Shown: piece after piece, positions 12,418 through 51,616 of the stretch
Layout: each line of letters opens with the position of its first letter
How positions within the stretch are numbered: position 1 is the first letter of the stretch
Origin: Peribolospora baueri
Taxonomy: Eukaryota
Assembly: GCA_029717555.1 (NCBI GenBank)
Contig: JAMDHS010000120.1
Coordinates: forward strand, 1-51,616
DNA length: 51,616 nt
Direction: 5' to 3'
The notes under the pieces: generated by a model
What the model was told of the DNA's origin: nothing
The model's input: the letters and a program-made list of their open reading frames with translations, nothing else
The model's database searches: none
Made by a program: the position numbers and the translations under genes

Positions 12418-15400
12418 TCAGTGCGAATTGACGTAGACGCCGGCCGGCGTCGGCGTCGGCGTCGGCGTCGACCGTCCGCTAGCTGGCGGAGTCACGCTGA
12501 ACGCCGCAGCGGCGGCGGCGGCGGCGGTGGCGGTGGCGCCCGCGCTGGTGAAGAACGAGTTCGAGTCGAGCTCCCCGCCGCCGAAAGGGGAGTAGACGTG
12601 TTGAGGGGCGCCGCCGGTGGCGAGGACGGGAGAGGGCACGCCAAACGCGCCCGCGCCCCCTCCGGGCCCAGCAGCACCCTGGAAGAAGCAAAACCGGTCG
12701 ACAAAGTCGGCATAGCTCGTCGAACCGATCGACGCCCGCACCTCGTGCTCCTCGCCGGCGGCGGCGGCGGCGGCGAAAGCGGTGAAGGCTGCGGGGCTGA
12801 TCGAGGGCAAAAACGGCTGATGAGCGTTGTTGGGGCGCGGGGTGTGGGGCGATTCGGAGATGTTTCCTTCTGTGGAGTCGTCCTCGATCGACGTCGTCGG
12901 CGTGGTGATGACGCTCGAGTTGAGCGAGTCGAGAGAAGAGATGGAACCGGAGGGCGAGAATTGCGCACGGGGCGATGACTCGTCCGGCGAGGGCGTGCCA
13001 GCTTCGATCTCCGTCACCGTCGCCGGCGCACTTGACGTCGTCCCGGTCGTCGCCGCCTGGCCGGCACCCAAACCGTCATCTCGCAAGGCCACGGACGTCG
13101 CGGGCATACTCCCTCTGTCGGCTCTCTCCCCGTCTCCTCTCGCTGTGACGAGCCCTTCCGGAGCACCCTGGACAGGCGACTGGACAAAGCTGCCAGAGAT
13201 GCGATCAAACACCGCCTGCGACCAGGCCGCAGCGGCCGACTGGGTTGTCGAAGGGAGGCGATTGGGAGGGAAAGAGTTGAAACGCTGAGACGGAGACGAG
13301 TGTCTGGGGAGGGAAGGCGAGCTGGACGGGATGAAGAGGTCCGTAGCCGCGCCGGCGACTGCGCCCGCGGACCGGGGAGGAGGCAGCGACGGGAGTGGGG
13401 CAGCGACGACGGTCGGCGAACTGGACGCCGGCGAGCCGGTGGCGGGCGTGCCGCCGGATGAGGGGGAGGGCGAAAGGGAGGGCGATGGCTCTCCGGGTCT
13501 GTGGGCGACCACTTCGCCCAAGCCGGGACTGAGTGCGCCGCGAGCGAAGAAGCCGGGAGGGAGGGGGACGTCGGTCGACGACGGCGGGCCGGTGGGACCG
13601 CCGGCGTTGGCGTCGAACGTGGGACTGTCGAAAGCGGCACTGCCCTGGTAGCCTCGAGTGAAGGGTCCGGTGGAGGTGTTGGGATTCGGGGTAAAATACG
13701 AGTCGACGGTCTTGTGCAGCTGAAGCGGAGCGGTGCTAAAGTCGTACCGGGCGGACCAGATGCGGTTTTCCGCGCTCGACCCTGAGCCTGATGACTCTGT
13801 CGCGGTCGATGATCTTCCGGGCCGAACAGCACCCGATCCGGCAAGCTTGGCGGCGTCCTTGGCCAGACTGCGGAACCGAGGGAGCGGACGGCCGTCGTCA
13901 TCGTCGTCGTCGTCGTCATCGCGGGCGAGCCGATCCAGTTCTCTCCGTAGCTCGGCCATCGGGAAGCCTCGAGAGCCGCGATGGAGGCCAACGAAAGCCG
14001 AAGCGGGAACAGACTGGGCTCGACTGACGGCGGCGGCGGCGGAGGAAGAGGACGAGGACGAGAAGGGGGTCGCCGCGATCGGGCTGACCGATAGTGAAGT
14101 GGGCGTGGAGGGCCGCTTGATGAAGGGAACGCGACGGAATTCGACACGGTAGTTCTGGCCGTCGTTGTTGTCCCAGAACTCACGGCCGCTGGAGGTGTAG
14201 CGGACGCAGAGAGACATGGTCTTCACCTCGTCCCGTCCGAGTGCAGCGCTGCCCTTCCAGACGAGAAGCTCGTGGAGCTTGACGCTGAACTGGAACCGAT
14301 CCTCCTTTCCGCCCCTCAGGCTCTCGGCGTGCTCGGCGCTGACCTCGCTGACGGTGTTCCACCGATCAAAGGTGAACCGAACGGCGACCCACTTCTCGAA
14401 CGCCAGGTTGCGCACGCGTACGACGCCCTTGATGGCGCGCTTGTCGTCAGAGAAGCCGATCCTCTCCAGATAAACGTCCTTGTCCCCGTCGAGGTTGGGC
14501 CGAAGGGGAAAGTTGGGCAGGCTGAGCTGCAGCTCGTCTTCCTGGGCGACGACGGTGCTGGAGGAGGAGCCTTTGCCGCCACCGGCAGGTGAACCGAGGG
14601 AACGGCGTCTGCGGATATAGAAGGGAAACTCGTCATCCTCGGTCTCCGTCTCGTTGACGGGGCTGCCGGTCCGGCTGACGGCGGCGGGGCGTTGCTGAGC
14701 GAGGAAGAGCTTGACGTGTTCGAGCTGGGTGTCAAAGTGGACGGCCTTGGAGGAGAGGCAAGGCGTGGTGGGGGCGGACTTGCTCATGCCGTTGGCAAAG
14801 GCGAAGGGCTGCACAGCGTCGGCCGAGCCGAGGGCGGGGTGCCAGTCTCCGCGGCAGCTTCCGCGCCATGAACCGCTCTTGAGCGAGCTCTTGACGGGCT
14901 CGCCGGACTTTTTGCGAACGACGGGGCCGGCGTGCGTGGTGGGCGGGGGAGACTGGACGACGGAGGCGAGGTCAAGGTGAAGGGCGGAGATGGTGCCGTC
15001 GGCGGCCTTGATATGCATCGCCCTGCGAGAGCCGGCGTGCAGAGGCTGTGTGGAGTGAGCCGACGCGGCACCGGTGCCGGTAGGACAAGGGAACTCGACG
15101 GAAGACGTCTCCGAGGCGGGCGGCCCAGAAGCCGGGGAGGTGGGGAGGACATGTGCGGGCGACGGTGGGGAAGACGGAGGGGGAGACACCGTTCGTACCG
15201 TTCGCGGTGCGGTGGCGCTCGTGGTGGGCGGAGGCGACACGGACGCACTCTCCTTCCGCGCTCGGCGGTGGTGGTGGTCGGCCGCGTCCGCTTTCGACAG
15301 CAGCGGAGCGGTTAGCGGGGTGTGGTTCGAGGTCTTCTTGGGACGAACGCCGCCGTCGTTCCTCCGGGGGAGTTGGTGGGCGGGAGTGAAGCCCATGAGG

Positions 15401-15729
15401 CGGGGTCGGCGCATGAGCGGGAGGGGGGCGGACGCGGACGTTGACCCGTCGCGGCTGTTCCGGCGAGCGTTGAGGGACATGGCCTTGGCGGGGCTGATCT
15501 GGAGAGAGGAGCGAGCGGAGGCGTACATGCCGGCCGCGGACGGGACGTCATCAGAGGAATGGCTGCGGGAGTGATGGCGTAGGGGCCGGGGACCGTCCCT
15601 GTCGCGGGTCACGGTGGTGGCCGGGAGGGTGTAGGTGGTGGCGACGGCGGTGGGCATGGTGGCTTGGGAGACGGTGTGGGGGGGCGAAAGGGAAGCGGCG
15701 TTGGAGGGAGAGGCAGATGGCGAGGCCAT
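12418..15729 (-). CDS. Protein phosphatase 1 glycogen-targeting regulatory subunit (CBM21 domain; Gac1/Gip2-like), intronless ORF
   Basis: 1103-aa ORF containing RKKSGEPVKSSLK, RVxF-type motif KAVHFD, and CBM21 signature GVVRVRNLAFEKWVAVRFTFDRW...DRFQFSV...CVRYTSSGREFWDNNDGQNYRVEF. Confidence 0.92.
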   Translation of the reverse strand: MASPSASPSNAASLSPPHTVSQATMPTAVATTYTLPATTVTRDRDGPRPLRHHSRSHSSDDVPSAAGMYASARSSLQISPAKAMSLNARRNSRDGSTSASAPLPLMRRPRLMGFTPAHQLPRRNDGGVRPKKTSNHTPLTAPLLSKADAADHHHRRARKESASVSPPPTTSATAPRTVRTVSPPPSSPPSPAHVLPTSPASGPPASETSSVEFPCPTGTGAASAHSTQPLHAGSRRAMHIKAADGTISALHLDLASVVQSPPPTTHAGPVVRKKSGEPVKSSLKSGSWRGSCRGDWHPALGSADAVQPFAFANGMSKSAPTTPCLSSKAVHFDTQLEHVKLFLAQQRPAAVSRTGSPVNETETEDDEFPFYIRRRRSLGSPAGGGKGSSSSTVVAQEDELQLSLPNFPLRPNLDGDKDVYLERIGFSDDKRAIKGVVRVRNLAFEKWVAVRFTFDRWNTVSEVSAEHAESLRGGKEDRFQFSVKLHELLVWKGSAALGRDEVKTMSLCVRYTSSGREFWDNNDGQNYRVEFRRVPFIKRPSTPTSLSVSPIAATPFSSSSSSSAAAAVSRAQSVPASAFVGLHRGSRGFPMAELRRELDRLARDDDDDDDDDGRPLPRFRSLAKDAAKLAGSGAVRPGRSSTATESSGSGSSAENRIWSARYDFSTAPLQLHKTVDSYFTPNPNTSTGPFTRGYQGSAAFDSPTFDANAGGPTGPPSSTDVPLPPGFFARGALSPGLGEVVAHRPGEPSPSLSPSPSSGGTPATGSPASSSPTVVAAPLPSLPPPRSAGAVAGAATDLFIPSSSPSLPRHSSPSQRFNSFPPNRLPSTTQSAAAAWSQAVFDRISGSFVQSPVQGAPEGLVTARGDGERADRGSMPATSVALRDDGLGAGQAATTGTTSSAPATVTEIEAGTPSPDESSPRAQFSPSGSISSLDSLNSSVITTPTTSIEDDSTEGNISESPHTPRPNNAHQPFLPSISPAAFTAFAAAAAAGEEHEVRASIGSTSYADFVDRFCFFQGAAGPGGGAGAFGVPSPVLATGGAPQHVYSPFGGGELDSNSFFTSAGATATAAAAAAAAFSVTPPASGRSTPTPTPTPAGVYVNSH

Positions 15730-15955
15730 CGACTCGGAGAGGGGAGGCGACGTCGACGTCGATGTCGATGGGTACGATGGGCGAGGTCGCCGTCGTCGTG
15801 TCAGCCCGTCTCGTCGTTGTCGTTTCCTTACTCGATCGAATCGAGGTGGCGAGGGTGGGGAAGGGTCGACGTCGTCAGGTGGTCGTCATTCTAGCGGAGG
15901 AGATAAGAAAGCGGGGGGAGAATCGAGGGGAAGAGAATACAGAAGAGGGAGGAGG

Positions 15956-16015
15956 AGAGAAGAGAAGAGAAGAGAAGAGAAGAGAAGAGAAGAGAAGAGA
16001 AGAGAAGAGAGAAGA
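15956..16015. repeat. (GAGAA)n pentanucleotide microsatellite
   Basis: About 11 tandem units; produces the spurious EKRRE and LFSSL ORFs. Confidence 0.95.
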
Positions 16016-17903
16016 GGTGAGCAGAGAGAGGAGGAAGACCAGAAAGAAAAGAGATGAAACAAAAAAAGGTGGCGATGGTAGAGAAAGGGAAGAAAAGAGA
16101 TGAGGAGTAGAACGAGAGAAGGACATGGACGGGGCCCGTTCGCCGTTCGTTCGCGTGGCTGTTGCCGCAGCAGCCGTCTAAAAGCGGGCGATCGCGAAAT
16201 TTGGGCGCCGTCGACGATCGGGACGGACAACCGCGGAGGTGGCTTAGCTTGGCCTGGCTCGGAAGGGCAGGCCGACGCTGCATCGCCTCGCATCCCTCGG
16301 ACGGTATTTTCTTGGGGAAGCAGGAGCAGAACAAGCAGAAAGAAAGAAAGAAAGGAAAAAAACGAACAAGGGAGACAAGAGAGACAAGCGACAACAATCC
16401 CATTCGCCCATCCCCTTGCGCCCACCGTGCCCGTGCCCATCTGAGACCGGCGCGACTCGGCCGTGCCCATCCCATCCCATCCATCTTCCCCAGAGTGCCC
16501 GCCACCGCGGACGGGGGTGAGACAAGACGAGACGCATGCGTGGAGACGTTGACTGCCCGACGAGCCAGCAAAGGAACGAGAGAGAGGGCGGGCACGGATA
16601 ATAACTGGCACTCACCAGATTCGTTCGTTCGTACGCAGACAGACAGACGGGAGGGGCGTGTGTGAGAAGGGTATGTGCGGATGTGGCACGCAGAGAGAAA
16701 GCGGAGAGGGAGGAGAGGGATGAAAAGGAGGAGGGAGAGAGAGCGCCCGTCCGCTCGTCCCGGGCGGTCTGGTCTGGGTGGTGCGGGGGAGGGAAGGGCA
16801 AGGAAGAAGGGAAGCCGACGACGCGGGTTTATCAACCTCGTCCATCGTCCGTTCGCTGCACAACCGACAACCGACAACCGCCAACCGCGGGGCACGGAGG
16901 GAGACGGGGACGTGCGGGTGCGGGTGCGGATGCGGGGGCGGGGGCCGAGCGAGGCGGGGACCACAGACCTTAACTCTAGTGTGCTCTGTGCTCTGTGCTC
17001 TGTTCGCAGTCAAGCTTGCTTAACCAGCCTTGGCGGGCTGGTTGGCCTGGCCGGAGAGAGAGGAATGGGAACGTTGGGGAAGAGAAAGACGACGGAGGAG
17101 GAGACGAAGACGGCGAAGGAAAGGGCAGGAAGGGCAGGAAGGAGGTGCCGACCGAGCGAACGACGCTCGTCTGTGAATGTCTGACTGACTGTCTAGACGA
17201 CAGCCTGCCTTGCCGGTCTCAGTCAGTCAAGTCAGTCTCTCCCTGTCTGTCTGTCGTCCTTGACCGCCAGCCAGGCCGACAGGACAAGCGAAGGGGGCGC
17301 GTAGGTAGAGTTCGTTGGTGGGTCGGCGGCCGAGCGATGCCAGTTTTTTGGGGGCAGCCGCCGAAGGACACATAGACAGACAGAGAGAAGACGCGGTGTC
17401 GTCGACGATCCGACCTTGGTGCCCTGCTGGAGACAGACAGACACACACACCACGGGTACACCGACACATATGGGCGCACACATACACACCGCGGCACGAC
17501 TTGCCCGCCCCGAACCGCTTTTTTTATGTACTGTGCCTATCGTGTGTGTGTGTGTACCACCTGCCTTCCTAACCCCTTGCCTTCGTCCGCCTCCCGATCG
17601 CGACGACGACGTTAGCTTATTACACTAGCTTGCCTATTACACCAACTAACGCCCGAACACTGCTTCCTTCCGCCTTTCTTGTCACTTCCTGTCCACACAT
17701 ACGCATCCGTACCTCTACCGAGCCCTCGCCTCGCCTCGCCTCGCCGTCGGCCCCTCTCTTCGCCTCCACCCAAAAGAAGAAGAAGAAGGAGAAAAAGAAG
17801 AAAAAAAAAAAAAAGACGGTGGCGATCGATCGACGCGACGCGGATCCATCGACCCACTCGCATGTCACTCCACTCCACCCACCGCCTTGACCTCCTAGTC
17901 GTG

Positions 17904-28203: not shown

Positions 28204-30382
28204 TCACTCGTTGATCACGAGCCTGACGTCGCAAGCACAGGAGCGCGCATCAGAGGATCGAACGTTAGTCAGCCTTTGTCCGCTCTCATTCTGCCGCCCA
28301 TCCTGTTCCTCGTCCACGTTCTGCTCCCCCGTACGACGGAGACGGGCAGACAGACAGCGGCAGCGTTGGGCGGAGCGATGGACTCACTCGAACGAGCTGA
28401 AGTAAACCTTCTGGTCAGTGGGTGTTTGATAGGTGGAATCGGAGCCTCCGAAAAAGGTGGAAAAGAAGATACCGGCGCTGCGCGGGGAGGGGTAGGGTTT
28501 GTTCGTGCGCAGAGAGCGACGTATTGTGAGCGTCAGTTGCGTTATGAACGACAGAGGGAAAGAGGATGTACGGGGACAGGGTGCGATAAGACATGACACT
28601 CACAAGCCTGCGCCAGAGGTATAATAGACTTGATCGAACGTGGCTACCATCTCGTTCTCGAACCACACTGTGGGGGCACGACAATGTTTGAAACCATCAG
28701 CCCTCTTCCTTCGCCGTCTCCTCTTATCGAGCTAAACAGAGATTGCCCGCATCGGGCGGCTCACGGTTGAATGCCCCATCAGCTTTATCGGGCGAGGAAT
28801 TGAGCTTGATGTCCTGCCTGACGCTGCTCCACGAACCGTTATTGAACGTCCACGAGCCGCGGGCGATGCTGTCGCCATAGGACGGGTCGCAGACCGTCTT
28901 GGGCTGGGAGGGGAGGAAAGCCAGACGGGAGGCCCGACAAGGGTGGAGAGAAAACGGACGGCGCTTGGGTGAGCGATATCCGAAAAGTTTTGGAAAAGTG
29001 GGAACGATCAATCTAATTCGTCCGCTCACCGGCACATCGCAAAGGGCCGGAACTTGCTTGCTTTGGTCTGCGAGCAGACATCGACCGTTCGAGAAGGGAA
29101 GACGATAAGACGAGGAACGACAGGATTCGATCAGTGAAGTGAGTGACCCCGAGTCGTTCGAGTCTATCACCAGCACGTAAGCTCTAAACTGGTCCTCGTT
29201 CAAAATATCAGGCTTACCAGCATACAAATAGAGCTCGCCGGCACCGTCTTGTCTCCACATCAGGCGCGTGCTGAAGCAGTCTGTGGCAGCGTTTCCGCCT
29301 GAGCAGCCCTGTTCCGGGTGAAAAAGCGAATTGAACGCACGTCAATCGAGGGAACTTTGCTGCGCAGACCCAAGGAGGGATCATGCCATAACTGACCTTA
29401 GCTCCACCGCTGTATGGAGAGAAGATGACCGGGGACATACAGTGTCATGTCAACAGTCTTACTTCTTAATGCTCACACGGCCTTCAAGGAAGTCCATGGA
29501 AGAGGCCAATCTCCTAAGAGTGGAAACGTTCGCTCACTAAAGTCCAGGCAGCTTTCCACCTTTGACCCTGTGTGATAGGAGATGGCATCCGATGGAATGG
29601 TAAGCACGGCATACGTTAAGGCTTGCGACGCCAGAGTCCTAGAGGGAATTGCCGACTCGCCAATTGAAGCCCTGATAGTAGCCATCGAGCCAAGGAGAGG
29701 AAAAAAAAAGTGAGTGATGGGTCGTCTACGTCAATCATACACCATGACACCCCCCAGCTGCGAATTCAACCCTATCACACACATTAGGGAAGAAGACGTC
29801 ATAGGAGAAGGTGACGTTCTTGGCCGTGCTGAGGTCGATGGGACTGGCGTAGAACTGGGAGCCTCCTATGGGAGAGTGTTGGGGATTACGGGAGCCTGTT
29901 AGAAAGAGAAAGATGGACTGTGTGAGCGAGCAGGAGAGTACGTTCATCCGCGGGGACGGGATCTTGCTTACTCACCGGCGGGGTAGTCAATCTAGACAGC
30001 GGCCACAGCCAACCAAAGGAAAGAAAGGAACGGGAGGAGTTAAGCAAAGATACAGCGACCAAGGCAGATGCGCATCCTTGCTAACCTGGATAACCGAGCC
30101 ATTCGTTTTATTCGAAGACGGACCGTAAGCGCTGTCGGGCACTCCGGACGTCAAGATCTGCACATTGTTCTTGCCAGAGGACCAAGACAGTGTGCTTCCC
30201 CAGGGCGACCAGTCTGTGAAATTGGCGGGGAGAGACCAACTGTTCGCGGCGGGCTTGGAGGACATGAGGTCGCGATAGCGGGGAAGGGAGCCATGCAGGC
30301 GGGCCTCTGCAGCGGGTGCTGGAGAGAAGAGAGGAAGAAGGGAAAAAGCCACGAAGGAAGGGACGGTCAGCTTGAGATGCAT
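28204..30382 (-). CDS. Secreted polysaccharide lyase family 14 (alginate/glucuronan lyase-like), many exons including micro-exons
   Basis: N-terminal signal peptide. Spliced IDYPAGSRNP..GGSQFYA..FSYDVFFPN/GFNW/VKGGKLPGLY/GGAK/GCSGG..CFSTRLMWRQDGAGELYLYA..YGDSIARGSWTF..GIFFSTFFGGSD. Confidence 0.9.
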
Positions 30383-31455: not shown

Positions 31456-33010
31456 CCGCCTCCACAGTGGAAGAAGCGACTGCGCTTTGGCGTCTGCTAC
31501 TCCAGCTCACCGAGCCGCCGTTGCCCAGACTGAACGTGAATATGAGCTGCCGTCTTCAACGTGTTGCTAGCGATGTGACCAAGGCGCCTATGCCACGCCT
31601 GAGATCGCTAAGGCCTGCCGTCACCGGGGATCGTTCGTTCGCGTCCCCGACGTTGGGGAGTTGCGTCTCCGCGTCGTCGTCGGAGCTAAAGTCGCTTGCA
31701 TCCGAGTCGCCGTCACCCTCCGCCACCACCGGCTCTGCCGTTTCCTGGGCGTTGAGTGCCTGTGCGGGTGGCCTTTTGTTGAGAGGCGCGAGGTTAAGAA
31801 CGTAGAGCCCATTCCGAACGCGTCCTTTGGTGACCTCTTCCCTTTTTTGCTCTTGATCCTGGCCTCCTCATCACGCGCCTCAACGATGAAGCCGCGCTTG
31901 GTCAGCTGAGGGACCGAGAGAAGGTTCGCGACCAGTCCTGGTGCATAGAGGACGTCCCTGATCGATTCAGAGCTGCCGTCAGGGAAGACGAGGCGAACGA
32001 CGCCAGAGCCTGGGGCGTTCAGAGTCGCGTTGTTGCCCATGGTGACGCGGTGAGGAGTGCTGAAGGCATTATACTCCCCAAACTACTTCTTGTCGTTGGT
32101 CATGTGCTTACTAGCACCGCTGTCGAGCACCCAGTCATTCTTCTGAGCGTCGGCGTTGAAGTGAGCTTGCGCGGCAACGGCGGAGAAGGTCCAAGCGAAG
32201 GCGGCCCAGTCGTTCTTTTCGCCTTCCTTTTTCTTCTTCTCTTCCTCCATCCTCAGCGTTCGGCATTCGACCTTCTTGTGCCCAACCTTCCCGCAGTGAT
32301 GGCACTTGCCCTTGAACTTGTATTTCTTGAGTCGCGGCCATAGCAGTCTCAGCAGACGACGTCGGAGCATTTTAGGCAACTGTCTGCATCATCTCCTTCT
32401 CGATCTGCTTGACCTCGTGCATCAACTCGTCGGATGGTAGAGTCTCCGTGTGAAAGCGCCAGACTGCTTTGTGAACTTCAAAGGAGGAGGGCAGTCGCTC
32501 GAGGAGCATATAGGTGAAGTCCTCGTCAGCCAACGTCTCTCCTGCCTCGCGGAAGTTGTCTCGCAGGTCCATCATGCGCGCGAAGAAGGCGTTCATAGAC
32601 TCTTTTGGCTCCGGGTGCGTCTTTTTGAGCTCCGAACGCAAATTGAACCTAGTCGCCTTAGACTCGCCCGCGTGAATGTGCTCCAGGTCTGCCCACAGTT
32701 GCTTAGCCGACCTTCTCTCATTGATCTGGCTCAACTGGGTCCTTTCGAGCGTATCGATGATCGCCAGCCTGGCAATAGCGAGAACCCGCCGAAGGGTTTC
32801 GTGCGCCTGGTCCAGTTCGATCCAGTTGGAGTGATAGCTTACTGCCTCCTCCATATCGATGTCGGGCCCATTGGGGTCGATGAAGAACCAGAGCCCCGTC
32901 GACTCTAGGATGTTCGTCATCCTCCTTCTCCATCCGATGTAGTTCGGAGAGCTCAACTTCTGAGCTCCCTGCCAAGAGACAGCAGCGTTGTCCTTGACGC
33001 CCTTGACCAT
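31396..33010 (-). pseudogene. Copia gag-pol remnant (gag, zinc knuckle, protease, GAG-pre-integrase region, RNase H fragment)
   Basis: gag KLSSPNYIGWRRRMTNILESTGLW..LLERLPSSF; TAA at 32372-32374; frameshift near 32330; CHHCGKVGHKKVEC; WVLDSGASKHMT; TAG at 32083-32085; DVLYAPGLVANLLSV; SWSSRRQSAVASSTVEAEYI. Confidence 0.9.
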
Positions 33011-33132
33011 GTTCGCAATCTTGGCCTGCCTTCGGGACGGCTCACTGACCCTAGCTTGGGTGCGTCTGGCTCAGGATCGCCTCTTTCCGACTGAGGCGTC
33101 CCGGCCCTTCTGCCACCTCTACGAAGTCGATG

Positions 33133-45939: not shown

Positions 45940-48094
45940 ATGAAGGTTTCCATCACGGTCGCTACCGTCTGTCTGGCTCTCTCCGTGGCCAAGGCGGCGC
46001 CCGTCAATTACGACGAGTCTTCGCCAGAAGCGCTTGATAAGAGGCAGTGGTGGGGCGGCCCTTGGGGCTTTGGCTGGTGGGTACTTCGCTTCTATCTTCA
46101 CCGCCAATCCTGACGTCTCATTCCATTTCATCTTTGCTCTTTTAGGGGAGACTGGTGGAAGGATCACCAGCAGCACCAGCAGCGTGACATCTCCTTTGAG
46201 CGCGACGTCCCGCTTCCGCCTGGCCTCGACAAGAGGCAGTGGGGCTGGGGTGGTTGGGGAGGTTGGGGGGGCTGGGGGGGCTGGAGAGACTGGTTGGTCG
46301 AGATCTCGATCATGAAAGTTTTTGTTCGAAGCTGAAGCTGATGTCAACCTGTGCTCATCTGCGCCTATCTTTCAGGGACTGGTGGAAGGAGCACCAGAAG
46401 GAACTTGAGCAGCGTGACATCTCCGATGACGAAGATGATTTGCAGAAGCGCCTCTGGTGGGGTGGTTGGGGTCCGTGAGTAGCTCTCGCCGTCCTGTTCC
46501 TGCTCCACTTGTCATTAACCTGACTTCAATACATTTATTTTTTTCGTCCAGTGGTTGGGGCTGGGGTGACTGGTGGAAAGAGCACCAGCGTCGTGAAGAT
46601 TTCACGGAGAACGACATTTTGAACGCGCGTGGCTACTCGGATGAAGAGCTCGACCGCCTCTTTGGCGAGCGTGCTGATGAGGGTGAGGATCTTGACAAGA
46701 GGCAGTGGGGCGGGGGCGGCTGGGGCGGCGGGGGCTGGGGGGGCCAGGGCGGCTGGGGCGGCGGGGGCTGGGGGGGCCAGGGCGGCTGGGGCGGCCGGGG
46801 CGGCTGGGGCGGCGGGGGCTGGGGGGGCCGGGGCGGCTGGGGCGGCGGGGGCGGCGGGGGCTGGGGGGGCCGGGGCGGTGGATGGGGTGGTGGTCGGTGA
46901 GTATTTCAAAACGTCCACTATCTCTCCTTTGGTGCATGTTGTCGGGTTGACCGACTGAAATCTATCACTCTGTCTGGCAGCGGTGGTGGGGGGGGAGGTT
47001 GGTCGAAGAAGCGTGACATTTTGAGCGCGCGCGGCCTTTCGGATGAGGAAATTGATAACTTTGCCAAGCGCAGCGATGGCGGCGAGGTGGACCTTGACAA
47101 GCGCCTCTGGTGGTGGGGGTCGCCGTGGGGCTGGTGAGTGGCCTGTCATTCTGTGCTGTGAAGCTTCATTGTCGACGATAATTGAAGCGTGTGGCTATGT
47201 CATTCATCTCCCGCTGCACCAGGAACTGGTGGCAGGATCACAAGCAGCAGAGGGACGAGATCTTTAGGAGGGATGGGACCTTGGACGACGAGAAGTGGTA
47301 AGTCAGCTGTCCACCTAGCTGCACCTCACCCACCGCTCCTCAACTGACTTCTGCCGCCAACATTGCAGGGACGACTTTTGGAAGAAGGACGGTCAGGAGC
47401 TGGTGAAGAATGGCCTACTCGAACCCGATGAGGAGGTTGCCAAACGCCAGTTTGGGTTCGGCAGCGGTGAGTACATGTAGAACTCTGAACCGAAATGTGA
47501 TGTATTACGAACAATCTATTAACTGAGACCATTGATAATTTGCGGGGACAGGCAACGCGCTCGCCTTCCAGGTCAGCCGACGATGAGATCCGTCTATAGT
47601 CTTCGAGCAAAGAACAGCAACTGATGCGAACATATTTGTTTTGCTGCTTTCCAGAGCGCCAACGGAGGCTGGGGAGGCCCTGGTGGCTGGGGGTTCAACT
47701 TCGGGGGATGGAAGCGCCAGGTGCCCGCGATGGTCATCCCACACGAAGAAGAGCGGGGGATGAACGAGGACCGTGGCTCTGATGATGATCCCTGGGAGGA
47801 AAGGGAGAAGAGACAGTTCGGGTTTGGTGGTATCGCCATCGGTGGTAATGGTGGACCCGGAGGCTGGGGAGGACCTGGGTGAGTAGGATTGGGGTAGAGA
47901 AGATGTGATGCGTCGGACGACGTGGACACTGATGTTCGTTCTCGCGACATATTCTGCATCGTACCATCAGAGGGCTCAACATCAACGCTGGCGGGCTGTA
48001 AGTCGCCCTGTACGCCGCTCGGTATCGACCTGAGCTGCCAGCTGAAGCCTGTGACGCTTGTTTTGCTTTTTCCAGAAATGGCTGGTGGTGGTAA
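45940..48094 (+). CDS. Secreted Kex2-processed repeat protein (KEP): precursor of Trp/Gly-rich peptides, 11 exons
   Basis: Exons 45940-46076, 46146-46292, 46376-46474, 46552-46896, 46981-47133, 47223-47297, 47369-47466, 47552-47571, 47655-47878, 47971-47997 and 48076-48094 all have GT-AG borders and splice into one open frame. The protein is a signal peptide followed by repeated acidic spacer-KR-core modules. Confidence 0.88.
46706..46896 (+). repeat. G-rich coding minisatellite (ggctgggg... units, 15/18 bp) encoding GGW/GGGGW/GGxGGW repeats
   Basis: Read directly; about 11 tggggg-containing units. Confidence 0.9.
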
Positions 48095-48276: not shown

Positions 48277-49735
48277 TCAGATCGTCGAACGCATACGTCC
48301 GTTTGCGGAGAGCCTTCTCACTTTACCTTTGTCTTTGTCGACGCTTTCTGTTTGACCGACGTCAGGTGTAGGATCCAAGTCGACGCTTTCCGTCTGACCG
48401 ACGTCAGGTGTAGGATCCAAGTCGACGCTTTCCGTCTGACCGACGTCAGGTGTAGGATCCAAGTCGACGCTTTCCGTCTGACCGACGTCAGGCGTAGGAT
48501 CCAAGTCCGGCTCGCTCAACGCCGTCGTCGCACCGCCTTGGTTGAGATTCGTGCTGCCGTACCCTCCTCGTCCGCCGGAGCCTCCGTTCCCTCCGACTGC
48601 CGCCGCGGCGGCGGATCCCTGTCCCTGTCGCCCAGGTGCACTGCTCGTACCGCCCAAGTTGAGGGTACCGCCAGAACCCGAAGCGGTGTTATGGCCTAGT
48701 CCACCACCTCCGCCCGCGCCCCCGCTGTGCCAGGATGACACGGCGACGAAAAGGTCAGCCGACTGCTGTGGCCGTCGAGAGAAGGCCTCTGAACCCGGTA
48801 AAAAGGAGACGAGGGGGTATCAGGTCTCACCCTGCTGCTTGGTAGCCGTGCGCATTCCCGGAATCGTTTCCGCGATCGATCCCGTTGCCCTATTCGATCG
48901 TCGCGCCCAAAACAAAACGTTGAAGGTCACTTCAGCTGGGATCCGGATTCCCCAAAGCGAACAGCATACACCCAGCTTTAACGCCTTTTCCGAAAGCGAC
49001 GCAAAAGGGGCTCACATCGTTTATTGCCTGCTGGTTTCCGCTCCCTCCCAGGTCTCCTTGGTGAACCCGGTGCCGATGCCCGCCGCCACTGCCTTGGCGG
49101 CCTCGGCTCTTCCCGGACGAGTCGTGGAAGCCGAGCACGCCGAGCACGCCTTCGCTGGACAGGTCTCGCTTCGGGAGGTGCTTAAGCGGGTGGCTGAGTA
49201 CGTCGTCCAGCGAATGCGGCAAGACGGGAATGGACGGTAAAACAGGTTTGGGTCGCCGGTGAGTGTGGTGAGACCCGGGACGGGCAGCATGTCCACGATG
49301 GGATGCGAGGGCTTCGTGGTTTGAAACGGGCTGACGAATGCTAGGATAGTTTTCCGCTTTGGAGACAGGCGCCTTGGTATTATCCCCCGCTTGCGGCTTG
49401 CCGGCTTTGGCAACGCTCTCGGCGTTGTGGACGTTGGTACTGCTCACGCCAGGAGCGCCCGCCCTACCTGGCTGTCCGTCCAGACCAGACGGGAGCAGAG
49501 TGAGGTCTTGCCCGTTTTCGTACGACGTCAACTTGGTCCAAGCATCGTCGAGGGAGCTTTGAGCGTCTGCGATGTCGTCGGTGTAGGCCCGAGCTCGTAC
49601 GCTGTCGAATGAAGGTCTTGGCACGTTCTCGCGACGTTCGAGCGGATGGAGAGGGCAGGAAGCGCAAGCGAAAGCGGTGTGAAGGGCGAGAAGAGTGGAG
49701 ACTGAGAGCAGAGGAATCAACGCAAGCATCTTCAT
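48277..49735 (-). CDS. Secreted Gly-rich protein with dibasic sites and a 4 x 14-aa acidic repeat; 3 exons proposed, 3' end uncertain
   Basis: Signal peptide MKMLALIPLLSVSTLLALHTAFA; dibasic sites LERR, HRR and LPKR. Exons 49735-49016, about 48889-48831 (GNGIDRGNDSGNAHGYQAAG) and about 48725-48277 with GT-AG borders. Confidence 0.75.
48337..48504. repeat. 42-bp minisatellite x4, encoding DLDPTPDVGQTESV on the minus strand
   Basis: gtcgacgctttccgtctgaccgacgtcaggtgtaggatccaa at 48337, 48379, 48421 and 48463; no spacers. Confidence 0.97.
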
Positions 49736-50323
49736 ATCTGGAAGTGTGTGGGGAGGGGAAGCAAGACGTCAAGACTGGCCGGAGTCCGCGAGGCGTGGAA
49801 TCAGGCTTCGAAGCGGATCGACGCGACTGGACTGACGCGATCGGCAGATGTGCTTTTCGTTTGCGATCCTCCTCCTACGCCCTCCTTCACCCCCCTACCC
49901 CGCGCCCTCCTCTTTCCGCATTCTCAGCCCACTTCGCAGCAAAACATAAAGTCCATTTTATTCATAAGAGGCACTCGAAAAGTGCCCATCCAAATGTCCA
50001 TCGATAACCGGGGGGAAAAAGGGAAGAGAAGACGTTATGACATGGTCCATAAAAGAACCAGAACAGAGTAAGGATGTGCAGGAGAGACGATGGGCAAGAG
50101 GAACGTGGAGGTGAGCCTGGTCCACCTGCGTCCGCGTCCATCCATCCGGTCCAGTCCTCCCAAGGGTGGTGAACAGAACGAACGAGGGACGGGGAACAAA
50201 GGGCGTAGTAGTGGTGGTGGTGGTAATGGGCAAGAGAAGGGACGCAAGTACAATAGGATGGACGGACAAGTGGATGAACAAGAAGGAGTGATGCTGAGTC
50301 AGGCAGGTCTGCTGTCGCCGCCT

Positions 50324-51616
50324 TCACCAGCCGCCTTGCGCAACAGCGCCGCCGGCAGGAGAGAGGATAGGGACGTTAGCGCCGAGGCCAATCAGGTCAC
50401 CGCTGGCGCCGGCAGAGTTGGAGCCGCCGATGGCGGCGGCATTGCCGTTGTTGTGGTCGTCCTCGTGGTACCAGCGCTTGTACCCACGGAAAGGGAAACC
50501 GGCACCGTAGTTGCCGGGGGCGCCGTAAGCGCTAGCGCCACCGGCGGGCGAGGCGACAGGGACGTTGGCGGCAATGCCGATCAGGTCGTTGTTGGCCTGG
50601 GCAGAGTTGCAGCCACCCTTAGCGGCCGCGTTGCCATTGTCGTGGTTGTCGCGCTTCCGGCCACCCTGACCGACGGCGCCACCGGCGGGCGAGGCGATAG
50701 GGGCGTTGGCGGCAATGCCGATCAGGTCGTTGTTGGCCTGGGCAGAGTTGCAACCACCCACAGCGGCCGCGTTGCCGTCGTGGTGGCCGTCGTGGTGGTC
50801 GTCGTCCCAGCGCTTCCAGCCACCGTGAGCGACAGCGTTACCGGCGGGGGAGAGGATAGGGACGTTAGCGGCGAGGCCGATCAGGTCGCCGTTGGCGCTG
50901 GCAGAGTTGGAACCGCCAATAGCGGCGGCGTTGCCGTTGTCGTAGCCGTGGTCGTGGTCCCAGCGCTTCTTGAGGATGCCGCCGCCGTTGGCGTCAGCGC
51001 CGCCGGCAGGCGAGAGGATAGGAACGTTGAGTCCGAGGCCGACCAGGTCCCCATTGGCGCCCGCAGAGTTGGAGCCGCCGACAGCGCCGGCGTTACCGAC
51101 GCCGAGACCACCCCAGCGCTTCCAGCCTCCCTGAGCGCTAGCGCCACCCGCGGGCGAGGCGACAGGGACGTTGGCGGCAACACCGATCAAGTCGTTGTTC
51201 GCCTCGGCAGAGTTGGAGCCGCCAATCGCAGCGGCGTTGCCGTTGTTGTGGCCCTGGTAGTAGTCGTGATCATGGTGGTACCAGCGCTTCTTGAGGCCGC
51301 CGCCGTTGGCGACAGCGCTGCCGGCGGGGGAGAGGACGGGGACGTTGGCGGCAACGCCGATCAAGTCGCCGTTGGCCTGGGCAGAGTTGGAACCGCCAAT
51401 AGCGGCAGCGTTGCCGTTGTTGTGGCCCTGGTCGTAGTCGTGATCGTAGTGGTACCAGCGCTTCTTGAGGCCGCCGCCGTTGGCGACAGCGCTGCCGGCG
51501 GGGGAGAGGACGGGGACGTTGGCGGCAACGCCGATCAAGTCGCCGTTGGCCTGGGCAGAGTTGGAACCGCCAATAGCGGCAGCGTTGCCGTTGTTGTGGC
51601 CCTGGTCGTAGTCGTG
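50324..51616 (-). CDS. Kex2-processed repeat protein with at least 8 KR-separated ~50-58 aa units (repellent Rep1-like architecture); 5' end beyond the window
   Basis: Frame open from 51616 to the stop at 50324. Unit consensus KR-W(Y/D)H..DH..NGNAAAIGGSNSAxANxDLIGxAANVPxLSPAGxAxAxGG(W/GLK)KR. The outermost units are near-identical at DNA level with a 174-bp period. Confidence 0.92.
   Translation of the reverse strand, partial: HDYDQGHNNGNAAAIGGSNSAQANGDLIGVAANVPVLSPAGSAVANGGGLKKRWYHYDHDYDQGHNNGNAAAIGGSNSAQANGDLIGVAANVPVLSPAGSAVANGGGLKKRWYHHDHDYYQGHNNGNAAAIGGSNSAEANNDLIGVAANVPVASPAGGASAQGGWKRWGGLGVGNAGAVGGSNSAGANGDLVGLGLNVPILSPAGGADANGGGILKKRWDHDHGYDNGNAAAIGGSNSASANGDLIGLAANVPILSPAGNAVAHGGWKRWDDDHHDGHHDGNAAAVGGCNSAQANNDLIGIAANAPIASPAGGAVGQGGRKRDNHDNGNAAAKGGCNSAQANNDLIGIAANVPVASPAGGASAYGAPGNYGAGFPFRGYKRWYHEDDHNNGNAAAIGGSNSAGASGDLIGLGANVPILSPAGGAVAQGGW

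What the first reader, a model, noticed from the sequence alone, without database searches (positions are those of the whole stretch)
50324..51616. KR-separated array of at least 8 amphipathic ~50-58 aa peptides: repellent or chaplin-like functional amyloid candidate
Seen: each unit has a variable W/Y/H/D-rich head and a conserved small-residue core GNAAAIGGSNSAxANxDLIGxAANVPxLSPAG with hydrophobic beta-strand-like patterning. Only two units carry a single Cys. The outermost units are near-identical in DNA (174-bp period) while the inner ones have diverged, suggesting polarised, ongoing expansion. Established: Ustilago maydis Rep1 is a Kex2-cleaved repeat protein whose peptides form surface-active amyloid-like fibrils and functionally replace hydrophobins. 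Inference: this is an analogous and possibly non-homologous system.
Basis: partly seen in the sequence, partly recalled or inferred. Interest (0 to 1): 0.78.

Follow-up and report, generated by a model that had tools for sequence, protein, structure and literature searches.

The report
Fungal Kex2-cleaved repeat peptide precursor
The end of this fungal DNA window holds most of a gene for a precursor protein that is probably cut at Lys-Arg sites into nine or more related peptides of about 50 residues; this design is common in fungi, but these peptides match nothing on record and their job is untested.

Summary
The array is real. The minus-strand ORF 50324-51616 is open at the window edge. It encodes 8 tandem units (7 whole, 49-59 aa) joined by KR, KKR or RKR. 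The last unit ends GGW-stop, which is where the other units would end after basic-residue trimming.

Minus is the coding strand: unit differences by codon position are 286/195/401. The 32-aa core is under purifying selection, with mean dN/dS 0.27.

Contigs from public read sets add a ninth, first unit. It is preceded by Glu-Lys-Arg and an apparent intron acceptor, so the signal-peptide exon lies outside the window.

The host is a poorly sampled Ustilaginomycotina fungus. A second KR-processed precursor with a clear signal peptide lies 2.4 kb away.

No homologue was found by Pfam, PDB, two word-index searches, an exhaustive HMMER search of 1.84 billion proteins, or metagenome and prokaryote scans.

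[quoted passage not shown] The repellent/amyloid function is plausible but unsupported: structure models are disordered and beta-amphipathicity does not exceed shuffles.

The parts
50324..51616 (-). 3' part of the coding exon of the repeat-peptide precursor gene (430 codons plus stop). The 5' end lies beyond the window.
   Evidence: The ORF is open at the window edge. Differences between units by minus-frame codon position are 286/195/401. GC3 is 0.81. Core dN/dS is 0.27.
51458..51616 (-). Unit U1, cut by the window edge (53 aa seen); ends KKR
   Evidence: Identical in DNA to the matching 159 nt of U2. Contig word depth is about 1.4-1.75x that of the single-copy flank in runs X1 and X2.
51284..51457 (-). 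Unit U2, 58 aa; WYHYDHDYDQGHNN head, core, tail, KKR
51116..51283 (-). Unit U3, 56 aa; ends GGW-KR
50963..51115 (-). Unit U4, 51 aa. The most divergent unit, with a short Gly-rich head that has no His or Asp; ends KKR.
50810..50962 (-). Unit U5, 51 aa; ends GGW-KR
50651..50809 (-). Unit U6, 53 aa; one Cys; the head is encoded by a 12-bp micro-repeat (50774-50805); ends RKR
50474..50650 (-). Unit U7, 59 aa; one Cys; long aromatic tail; begins with D rather than W; ends KR
50327..50473 (-). Unit U8, the last unit, 49 aa. It ends GGW directly before the stop, with no KR.
50324..50326 (-). Stop codon
51458..51466 (-). Dibasic site KKR (U1|U2)
51284..51292 (-). Dibasic site KKR (U2|U3)
51116..51121 (-). 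Dibasic site KR (U3|U4)
50963..50971 (-). Dibasic site KKR (U4|U5)
50810..50815 (-). Dibasic site KR (U5|U6)
50651..50659 (-). Dibasic site RKR (U6|U7)
50474..50479 (-). Dibasic site KR (U7|U8)

Best explanation
This is the main exon of a gene for a Kex2-processed repeat protein (KEP) in an Ustilaginomycotina fungus.

Proposed mechanism:
1. A pre-pro-protein enters the secretory pathway.
2. The Golgi protease Kex2 cuts after each KR.
3. A Kex1-type carboxypeptidase trims the basic residues.
4. Nine or more related peptides of 48-57 aa are released. Each has a Trp/Tyr/His/Asp-rich acidic head, a conserved Gly/Ala/Asn/Ser core with one hydrophobic stretch (DL-I/V-G...NVP..SPAG), and a GGW or GGGL end.

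The peptides most likely act outside the cell at the wall or surface as self-associating, block-amphipathic coat peptides. That makes them functional analogues of Ustilago repellents without being detectable homologues.

Shown: the repeat array, the coding strand, selection on every unit, the restriction of K/R to unit boundaries, the last unit ending as a trimmed unit would, and a first unit preceded by EKR.

Inferred: the signal peptide, actual cleavage, and every aspect of function.

My odds: about 0.8 that it is a processed KEP precursor, and about 0.35-0.4 that the peptides are repellent-like surface peptides. The confidence figure is for the whole statement.
For: KEP architecture
- 8 units in one ORF with KR/KKR/RKR at all 7 boundaries.
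- 18 of the 20 K/R residues are at those boundaries.
- The final unit ends GGW-stop, as U3 and U5 would after cleavage and trimming.
- In all 4 runs laid, a contig carries another in-frame unit. It is preceded by codons for Gly-Glu-Lys-Arg and then by unique sequence ending in a pyrimidine tract plus CAG (tables 5, 5c, 7, 8). That matches the intron acceptors of the neighbouring gene.

The gene is real and each unit matters
- Codon-position differences are 286/195/401.
- Core dN/dS averages 0.27 with dS up to about 1.
- In the related organism B, the 268 nt of coding sequence at 50324-50591 show 1 to 3 differences, against 33 to 35 in the 1313 nt downstream flank.

Context
- A second precursor at about 45940-47890 (+) has an evident signal peptide, acidic spacers ending in KR, and Gly/Trp-rich peptides.
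- A further ORF with a signal-peptide-like start lies between the two genes.
- The host is in Ustilaginomycotina. In Ustilago maydis, Rep1 has the same design and forms wall amyloid (PMC3133707 and PMC4617103 passages), and 8 of 15 repeat effectors have Kex2-type sites (PMC5923269 passage).
- Yeast-like Basidiomycota tend to have long KEP peptides (PMC6339444 passage).

Against an anchored or glycosylated wall protein
- There are no N-glycosylation sequons, no Thr, and no hydrophobic C-terminal GPI signal.

Composition
- G+A+N make up 217 of 430 residues. This is typical of self-associating, beta-prone low-complexity peptides; that comparison is my own knowledge, not a tool result.
Against: - The N-terminus, and so the signal peptide, is not in the window and could not be retrieved.
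- Cleavage is not shown.
- The whole-core hydrophobic moment does not exceed shuffles.
- The peptides are acidic (net -1 to -5) and weakly hydrophobic. Their invariant prolines sit inside the hydrophobic stretch and would disfavour a simple cross-beta core.
- AlphaFold2 gives mean pLDDT of 35 for the whole protein and 51 for a single unit, mostly coil.
- No similarity to Rep1-family, chaplin or any other protein was detected.
- 21 invariant positions across old duplicates could equally mean a specific binding function.
Confidence: 0.4

Rival explanations
1. It is a processed KEP, but the peptides are soluble bioactive products rather than a surface coat. They could be metal-binding peptides (the His/Asp/Tyr/Trp head as a Zn/Cu/Ni ligand cluster), anionic antimicrobial or competitor-directed peptides, host-directed effectors or signals.
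For: - The heads carry 0-4 His and several Asp.
- 21 invariant core positions under purifying selection suggest a specific fold or partner.
- The peptides are not very hydrophobic and lack periodic amphipathicity.
- Most KEP functions are unknown, and the known ones are mostly bioactive peptides (PMC9769878 abstract start in the listing; PMC7329392 background).
- The neighbouring KEP makes Gly/Trp-rich peptides.
Against: - Peptides of 48-57 aa are far longer than typical KEP signals of 9-24 aa (PMC6339444).
- Net negative charge is unusual for antimicrobial peptides (my own knowledge, not a tool result).
- U4 lacks the His/Asp head altogether yet keeps the core, so the core rather than the metal-type head is the constant feature.
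Confidence: 0.25
2. It is a true but highly diverged orthologue of the Rep1 repellent gene of Ustilaginales: the same family and function, with the sequence drifted beyond detection.
For: - The subphylum is the same.
- The design and peptide size range are the same.
- Rep1 is called 'core' among smuts (PMC6339444 supplement row). Putative orthologues are listed for Ustilaginales (PMC7409079 table) and for Tilletia (PMC9172201 table).
- Repeat proteins evolve fast.
Against: - The exhaustive profile search found 0 proteins at E<=0.001 among 1.84 billion representatives.
- Both word-index searches found nothing, even at E<=10 in the second.
- Units within this gene stay recognisable at dS about 1, so total loss of similarity to Rep1 would need much deeper divergence.
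- No direct comparison was possible, because no tool gave me a Rep1 sequence.
Confidence: 0.12
3. It is a secreted or wall repeat protein that stays intact. The KR pairs would be part of the repeat without being cleaved.
For: Cleavage is not shown. Unprocessed repetitive wall proteins are common in fungi (PMC5923269 passage).
Against: - K/R occur almost only at unit boundaries.
- The last unit stops exactly where trimming would end the others.
- There is no GPI-type C-terminus, no Thr and no sequons.
- The first unit is itself preceded by KR.
Confidence: 0.08
4. It is a RiPP precursor of the ustiloxin/dikaritin type or a pheromone-type KEP, or else it is not a gene on this strand and the long plus-strand ORF 50090-51616 is the real one.
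For: The KEP design is shared with RiPP and alpha-pheromone precursors (PMC7329392). The plus strand also has an open frame of 509 aa.
Against: - Units are 49-59 aa, not short Tyr-containing cores.
- There is no XA/XP Ste13 signature after KR.
- None of the 93 ORFs (stop-to-stop, >=110 aa) examined on the visible side (22339-50375) matched DUF3328/UstYa, a tyrosinase or a methyltransferase.
- In the plus frame most differences between units would fall on codon position 1: 401, against 195 on position 2 and 286 on position 3.
Confidence: 0.04

Closest known systems
KEPs: Kex2-processed repeat proteins of fungi (Le Marquer et al. 2019, PMC6339444; Umemura 2020, PMC7329392)
   Same: Tandem related peptide units with dibasic Kex2 sites between them, and a pro-region ending in KR before the first unit. 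Long peptides are reported for yeast-like Basidiomycota. Orphan status is common: 2560 of 7878 KEPs had no homologue (abstract passage).
   Different: The signal peptide was not seen. None of six motifs from this unit occurs in the held text of the two catalogues' supplementary files; those files may be cut. At about 50 aa the peptides are at the long end of the range.
Ustilago maydis Rep1 repellent precursor (UMAG_03924)
   Same: The design: 12 amphipathic imperfect repeats of 34-55 aa separated by Kex2 sites, processed to peptides of 35-53 aa (PMC4617103). The fungal subphylum is the same. Most units lack Cys.
   Different: No detectable sequence similarity, tested only indirectly. No 228-aa C-terminal product is present here; the last unit is an ordinary one. 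Wall amyloid, surface activity and filament-specific expression are untested.
Ustilago maydis Hum3 and Rsp1 (other KR-separated repeat proteins)
   Same: Repeats separated by putative Kex2 motifs in secreted proteins of the same subphylum (PMC4617103 table rows).
   Different: Hum3 repeats are 31-36 aa and are followed by a hydrophobin domain. Rsp1 repeats are 18 or 21 aa and hydrophilic. This protein ends with a repeat unit and has no 8-Cys domain.
Streptomyces chaplins (Pfam PF03777) and E. coli curli CsgA
   Same: Small secreted peptides or repeats rich in Gly, Ala, Asn and Ser. From my own recall, not from any call: short chaplins are about 50-60 aa, and curli repeats carry a GxGN(S/G)A-type motif that locally resembles the GGSNSA of this unit.
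   Different: Both are bacterial. No Pfam match to chaplin, curlin or any family for the whole protein at E<=1 or for single units at E<=10. No relative in 185,579 prokaryote species genomes. The mode of production differs, since neither is made by Kex2 processing.

Membership tests
KEP (Kex2-processed repeat protein) | Internal tandem repeats of related peptide sequence | tested here: met
   8 units, 21 invariant columns, TRF scores 414-822
KEP (Kex2-processed repeat protein) | Kex2 dibasic sites (KR, RR or KK) between the repeats | tested here: met
   KR at 7 of 7 boundaries; 18 of 20 K/R residues lie there
KEP (Kex2-processed repeat protein) | N-terminal signal peptide | not testable with these tools
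   The 5' exon is outside the window. Read-set contigs show only 30 loose letters upstream of the first unit, and they look like an intron acceptor. No genome is held.
Rep1 repellent family | Sequence homology to Rep1 repeats | tested here: inconclusive
   0 hits in the exhaustive profile search and in 2 word-index searches. I could not confirm that Rep1 is in those libraries, and I could not align to it directly.
Rep1 repellent family | Kex2-separated amphipathic repeats of about 34-55 aa | tested here: met
   Units of 49-59 aa with a polar head and a mildly hydrophobic tail. The amphipathicity is block-type, not periodic.
Rep1 repellent family | [quoted passage not shown] | not testable with these tools
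   This needs bench work. The AlphaFold2 models are uninformative.
Chaplin (PF03777) | Match to the chaplin domain profile | tested here: not met
   No Pfam family for the whole protein at E<=1 except a sub-threshold 'Cytotoxic' match (12 bits against a cut-off of 22), and none for the 8 single units at E<=10
Hydrophobin | Eight-cysteine pattern | tested here: not met
   2 Cys in 430 aa, with 0 or 1 per unit
Ustiloxin/dikaritin-type RiPP KEP | Short Tyr-containing core peptides and DUF3328 (UstYa) genes nearby | tested here: not met
   Units are about 50 aa. None of the 93 ORFs examined in 22339-50375 matches DUF3328. The other flank is unseen.
Alpha-factor-type pheromone KEP | Peptides of 9-24 aa with a Ste13 XA/XP signature after KR | tested here: not met
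   P1' residues are W (6 of 7 sites) or D (1 of 7), followed by Y, G, D or N; there are no XA/XP dipeptides

The most novel reading that the evidence does not exclude
An unsampled Ustilaginomycotina lineage has independently evolved its own family of repellent-type wall peptides, unrelated in sequence to Rep1. A conserved Gly/Ala/Asn core would stack into a fibril. The variable His/Asp/aromatic head would act as a pH- or metal-sensitive switch, keeping the peptides soluble in the secretory pathway and triggering assembly at the cell surface. The adjacent Gly/Trp-peptide precursor would be part of the same surface-coat gene cluster.
Probability: 0.18. Interest if true: 0.65.

Novelty: new member of a known kind. 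Interest (0 to 1): 0.4.

Why it matters
If the peptides do coat the cell surface, this would be a second, sequence-unrelated case of Kex2-released repellents. That would show that basidiomycete lineages can replace hydrophobins in more than one way. It would also provide simple 50-residue, Cys-free peptides for studying switchable self-assembly.

As it stands, the finding adds one well-delimited orphan type to the large and mostly uncharacterised KEP class. It also shows two different KEP genes clustered within 6 kb in a poorly sampled fungal lineage.

Tried and rejected
Searches for relatives and for the missing 5' end
- No whole genome is held for the window, so the 5' end, hydrophobin content and paralogues could not be examined.
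- Pfam on the whole protein and on single units gave nothing usable.
- PDB sequence search with the protein and with the unit profile gave only chance-level rows, E 0.08 and 0.12.
- The ESM Atlas gave no usable hit.
- Word-index homologue searches, 'near' and 'longer', gave none, but in each about 8000 candidates crowded the list.
- The exhaustive HMMER search with the 51-position unit profile gave 0 hits. A short, compositionally biased profile has limited power against single-unit relatives.
- The search for related loci in metagenome contigs found 594 pattern matches and in prokaryote genomes 101. None was confirmed by tblastn.
- An exact 36-base search of metagenome contigs to recover the 5' end gave 0 matches.
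- Earlier findings of this scan by place, sequence and words gave nothing.

Structure and assembly
- AlphaFold2 on the whole protein gave pLDDT 35, and on one unit with the 8-row alignment gave pLDDT 51. Both are too poor for a fold search, so none was run.
- Complex prediction with 4 copies of a unit returned 'no answer'. It is evidence neither way.

Expression
- No RNA holder is listed among the sequencing runs, so expression is unknown.

Literature
- Six unit motifs were searched in the held supplementary text of the two KEP catalogues: 0 occurrences. The files may be truncated.
- PMC2666566, PMC452153 and PMC2757621 are not held, so I never saw a Rep1 peptide sequence.

Readings rejected
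- The plus-strand ORF 50090-51616, on the codon-position pattern.
- A RiPP cluster.
- A GPI-anchored or glycosylated wall protein.
- Other copies of the unit elsewhere in the window: the best outside hit in tblastn had E=0.08.
Full report
1. THE OBSERVATION

The minus strand of 50324-51616 is one open frame that runs off the window's last base and ends with a stop at 50324-50326. Splitting its 430 residues after each dibasic cluster gives eight units:
- U1, 51458-51616, cut by the window edge, 53 aa seen
- U2, 51284-51457, 58 aa
- U3, 51116-51283, 56 aa
- U4, 50963-51115, 51 aa
- U5, 50810-50962, 51 aa
- U6, 50651-50809, 53 aa
- U7, 50474-50650, 59 aa
- U8, 50327-50473, 49 aa

Tandem Repeats Finder reports periods of 174, 159 and 141 bp with scores of 822, 470 and 414.

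Of the 20 Lys/Arg residues, 18 lie in the seven boundary clusters KKR, KKR, KR, KKR, KR, RKR and KR. U6 and U7 each have one Cys in the same column. All of this confirms the core of the observation.

2. CODING STRAND AND SELECTION

The plus strand also has a long open frame, 50090-51616. Summed over all 28 unit pairs, the differences between units fall 286/195/401 on positions 1/2/3 of the minus frame. In the plus frame the same differences would fall mostly on position 1. GC3 of the minus frame is 0.81.

For the 32-aa core, Nei-Gojobori estimates over the 21 pairs of whole units give mean dN 0.148 and mean dS 0.554, a ratio of 0.27. Pairwise dS ranges from 0.04 (U6-U7) to about 1.1.

So the minus strand codes, each unit is kept by selection on its amino-acid sequence, and most duplications are old.

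U1 and U2 are identical over their shared 159 nt, while all other pairs are 65-86% identical. However, the nearest pairs are U1-U2, U6-U7, U5-U2 and U5-U8, which is not a gradient along the array.

Contigs from public read sets show that U1 is not the outermost unit (section 4). Word depth of the contigs lying on the U1/U2 sequence is 1.4-1.75 times the single-copy flank in runs X1 and X2 (organism A). It is 0.65-0.96 times the flank in run X3 (organism B) (table 8). This fits a real two-copy state in A and perhaps a single copy in B. It is a weak hint that this one duplication is recent.

The claimed beta-strand patterning did not hold. The hydrophobic moment of each core at 100, 170 and 180 degrees exceeded 95% of 2000 shuffles in only 1 of 21 tests. 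The peptides are amphipathic in blocks: a head with 7-residue hydropathy of about -2.5 and a tail of about +0.4 to +1.8.

4. THE MISSING 5' END

No genome is held for this window. Four coded DNA runs from one study hold the stretch: two of organism A (0.89 of the sampled words) and two of organism B (0.38).

When their contigs were laid on 49000-51616, the following appeared in each of the four runs (tables 5, 5c, 7, 8):
- One contig of 854 to 13,231 nt matches the core of U4, with 8-10 differing letters.
- It then has 14 letters of its own.
- It then matches the head of U3 and the last bases of the preceding KKR.
- It then runs on into unique sequence.

Read on the minus strand this is a further in-frame unit with a WYHH-type head. 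It is preceded by codons for Gly-Glu-Lys-Arg. Upstream of those lies a pyrimidine-rich tract ending in CAG.

The introns of the neighbouring gene end in the same way (T-rich tract, then CAG or TAG, then GG), with GTGAGT-type donors and CTGAC branch sites. I therefore read the 30 loose letters as an intron acceptor. On that reading the repeat exon starts just before a KR that precedes the first unit, and the signal-peptide exon lies beyond the window.

Organisms A and B differ at 3 of these 30 letters. One of the three is a synonymous change in the Glu codon.

A second odd junction contig (137 nt, 12 extra letters in a unit tail) points to at least one more unit outside the window (tables 4 and 8). 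The array therefore has at least 9 units and probably 10 or more. The signal peptide itself remains unseen.

5. HOST AND SURROUNDINGS

ORFs in the window match eukaryotic families: PGAP1, CBM21, OPA3, UPF3, SYF2, SRR1, a ubiquitin-conjugating enzyme, a SAP domain, polysaccharide lyase 14, and copia-type gag/pol fragments.

The 1103-aa CBM21 protein has its best matches in Ustilaginomycotina, among them Pseudozyma, Moesziomyces, Violaceomyces, Kalmanozyma, Tilletia, Sporisorium and Sympodiomycopsis. Identity is only 32-38% over about half to three quarters of the query. The host is therefore a member of that subphylum without a close annotated relative in the library. This partly explains why no orthologue of the repeat gene turned up.

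Two neighbours matter:
- From about 45940 to 47890 on the plus strand lies a multi-exon gene. It starts with an evident signal peptide and a pro-region ending in KR. It then repeats a module at least seven times: an acidic spacer, KR, and a Gly/Trp-rich or Gly/Phe-rich peptide that starts with Q or L. This is a second, different KEP.
- Between the two genes, on the minus strand, ORF 48932-49735 starts with a signal-peptide-like hydrophobic stretch. It seems to continue into a Gly-rich region with four 14-aa repeats.

The finding therefore sits in a small cluster of genes for secreted, Gly-rich, low-complexity products. None of the 93 ORFs (stop-to-stop, 110 aa or longer) between 22339 and 50375 matched DUF3328 or a tailoring enzyme.

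6. RELATIVES

No relative was found. The searches were:
- Pfam, whole protein at E<=1 and eight single units at E<=10
- PDB sequences
- ESM Atlas
- word-index searches at 'near' and 'longer' lengths
- exhaustive HMMER with the unit profile against 1,835,955,588 representatives, giving 0 hits at E<=0.001
- back-translated pattern scans of metagenome contigs and of 185,579 prokaryote genomes
- the rest of the window
- six unit motifs in the held supplementary text of the two KEP catalogues

Limits of these searches:
- The profile is short and compositionally biased.
- The word-index lists were crowded by low-complexity candidates.
- The supplementary files may be cut.
- I never had a Rep1 sequence to align directly, because the three papers that might print one are not held.

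7. HOW IT MOST LIKELY WORKS

The restriction of basic residues to the boundaries, the KR before the first unit, and a last unit that ends GGW-stop all point to processing rather than an intact repeat protein. U3 and U5 would end the same way once KR is cut and trimmed.

The sequence also argues against an anchored or glycosylated wall protein. It has no Thr, no N-glycosylation sequon and no hydrophobic C-terminal signal.

From established knowledge of the yeast alpha-factor pathway (recalled, not from a call), Kex2 cuts after KR in the late Golgi and Kex1 removes the C-terminal basic residues. The products would be peptides of 48-57 aa with these properties:
- no basic residue other than His, apart from one internal Lys and one internal Arg in U7
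- net charge of -1 to -5
- 0-4 His each
- W at the N-terminus in 6 of the 7 units whose start is seen
- GGW, GGGL or GGGIL at the C-terminus in most units

What the peptides do is inference only. In favour of a repellent-like coat:
- The design and size are those of Rep1 (PMC4617103 table row; PMC3133707 introduction).
- The subphylum is the same.
- 50% of residues are Gly, Ala or Asn.
- The peptides have a surfactant-like head-and-tail layout.

Against it:
- hydrophobicity is weak
- invariant prolines sit inside the only hydrophobic stretch
- there is no periodic amphipathicity
- the structure models are uninformative

I put the KEP reading at about 0.8 and the repellent-like role at about 0.35-0.4. 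Soluble bioactive or metal-binding peptides are the main rival.

8. COMPARISON WITH WHAT IS KNOWN, AND NOVELTY

The class is established. KEPs are defined by a signal peptide, internal repeats and Kex2 sites between them (PMC6339444, background passage). A survey found 7878 KEPs in 1345 strains, of which 2560 had no homologue (PMC7329392, abstract passage). Ustilago maydis alone has eight repeat effectors with Kex2-type sites (PMC5923269, introduction passage).

Two of the three defining features are met here, and the third could not be tested. Membership in the Rep1 family is unproven. Membership in the chaplin, hydrophobin, RiPP-type KEP and pheromone-type KEP families was tested and not met.

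This is a new, orphan member of a known kind. It is well delimited and under selection, with an interesting but untested functional analogy.

9. VERDICT

Interest is moderate, at 0.4.

Noticed in passing
window 45940-47890 (+): A second, different KR-processed precursor gene. It has a clear signal peptide and a pro-region ending in KR, followed by at least 7 modules, each an acidic spacer (DWWKEHQ...), then KR, then a Gly/Trp- or Gly/Phe-rich peptide starting with Q or L. The modules lie in shifting frames and are separated by short introns with GTGAGT donors, CTGAC branch sites and YAG acceptors. Tandem repeats of period 9/33/42/51 lie at 46706-46878.
   Followed up: partly
window 48277-49735 (-): An ORF with a signal-peptide-like start (48932-49735) appears to continue, after a probable intron, into a Gly-rich region with four exact 14-aa repeats (42-bp tandem repeat at 48337-48507, 97% matches). 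There are no KR sites between these repeats and no Pfam match.
   Followed up: partly
window 12418-15729 (-): A 1103-aa CBM21 (GAC1-type phosphatase regulatory subunit) ORF. Its best matches are Ustilaginomycotina proteins at only 32-38% identity, so the window comes from a lineage of that subphylum without a close annotated relative.
   Followed up: partly
window 31624-33070 (-): Fragments of a copia-type LTR retrotransposon (Retrotran_gag_2 and the Pol beta-barrel domain) among housekeeping genes.
   Followed up: no
window 49011 and 49171: In organism B (runs X3 and X4) the contig over the neighbouring secreted-protein gene departs from the window before 49011. Run X4 also lacks 3 bases at 49171. 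This indicates a structural difference between the two related organisms in that gene (tables 4 and 7).
   Followed up: no
window 28727-29341 (-): An ORF fragment matching polysaccharide lyase family 14 (E 8.5e-25), another likely secreted product in the region.
   Followed up: no
window 15952-16038: A GAGAA pentanucleotide microsatellite, 11.8 copies.
   Followed up: no
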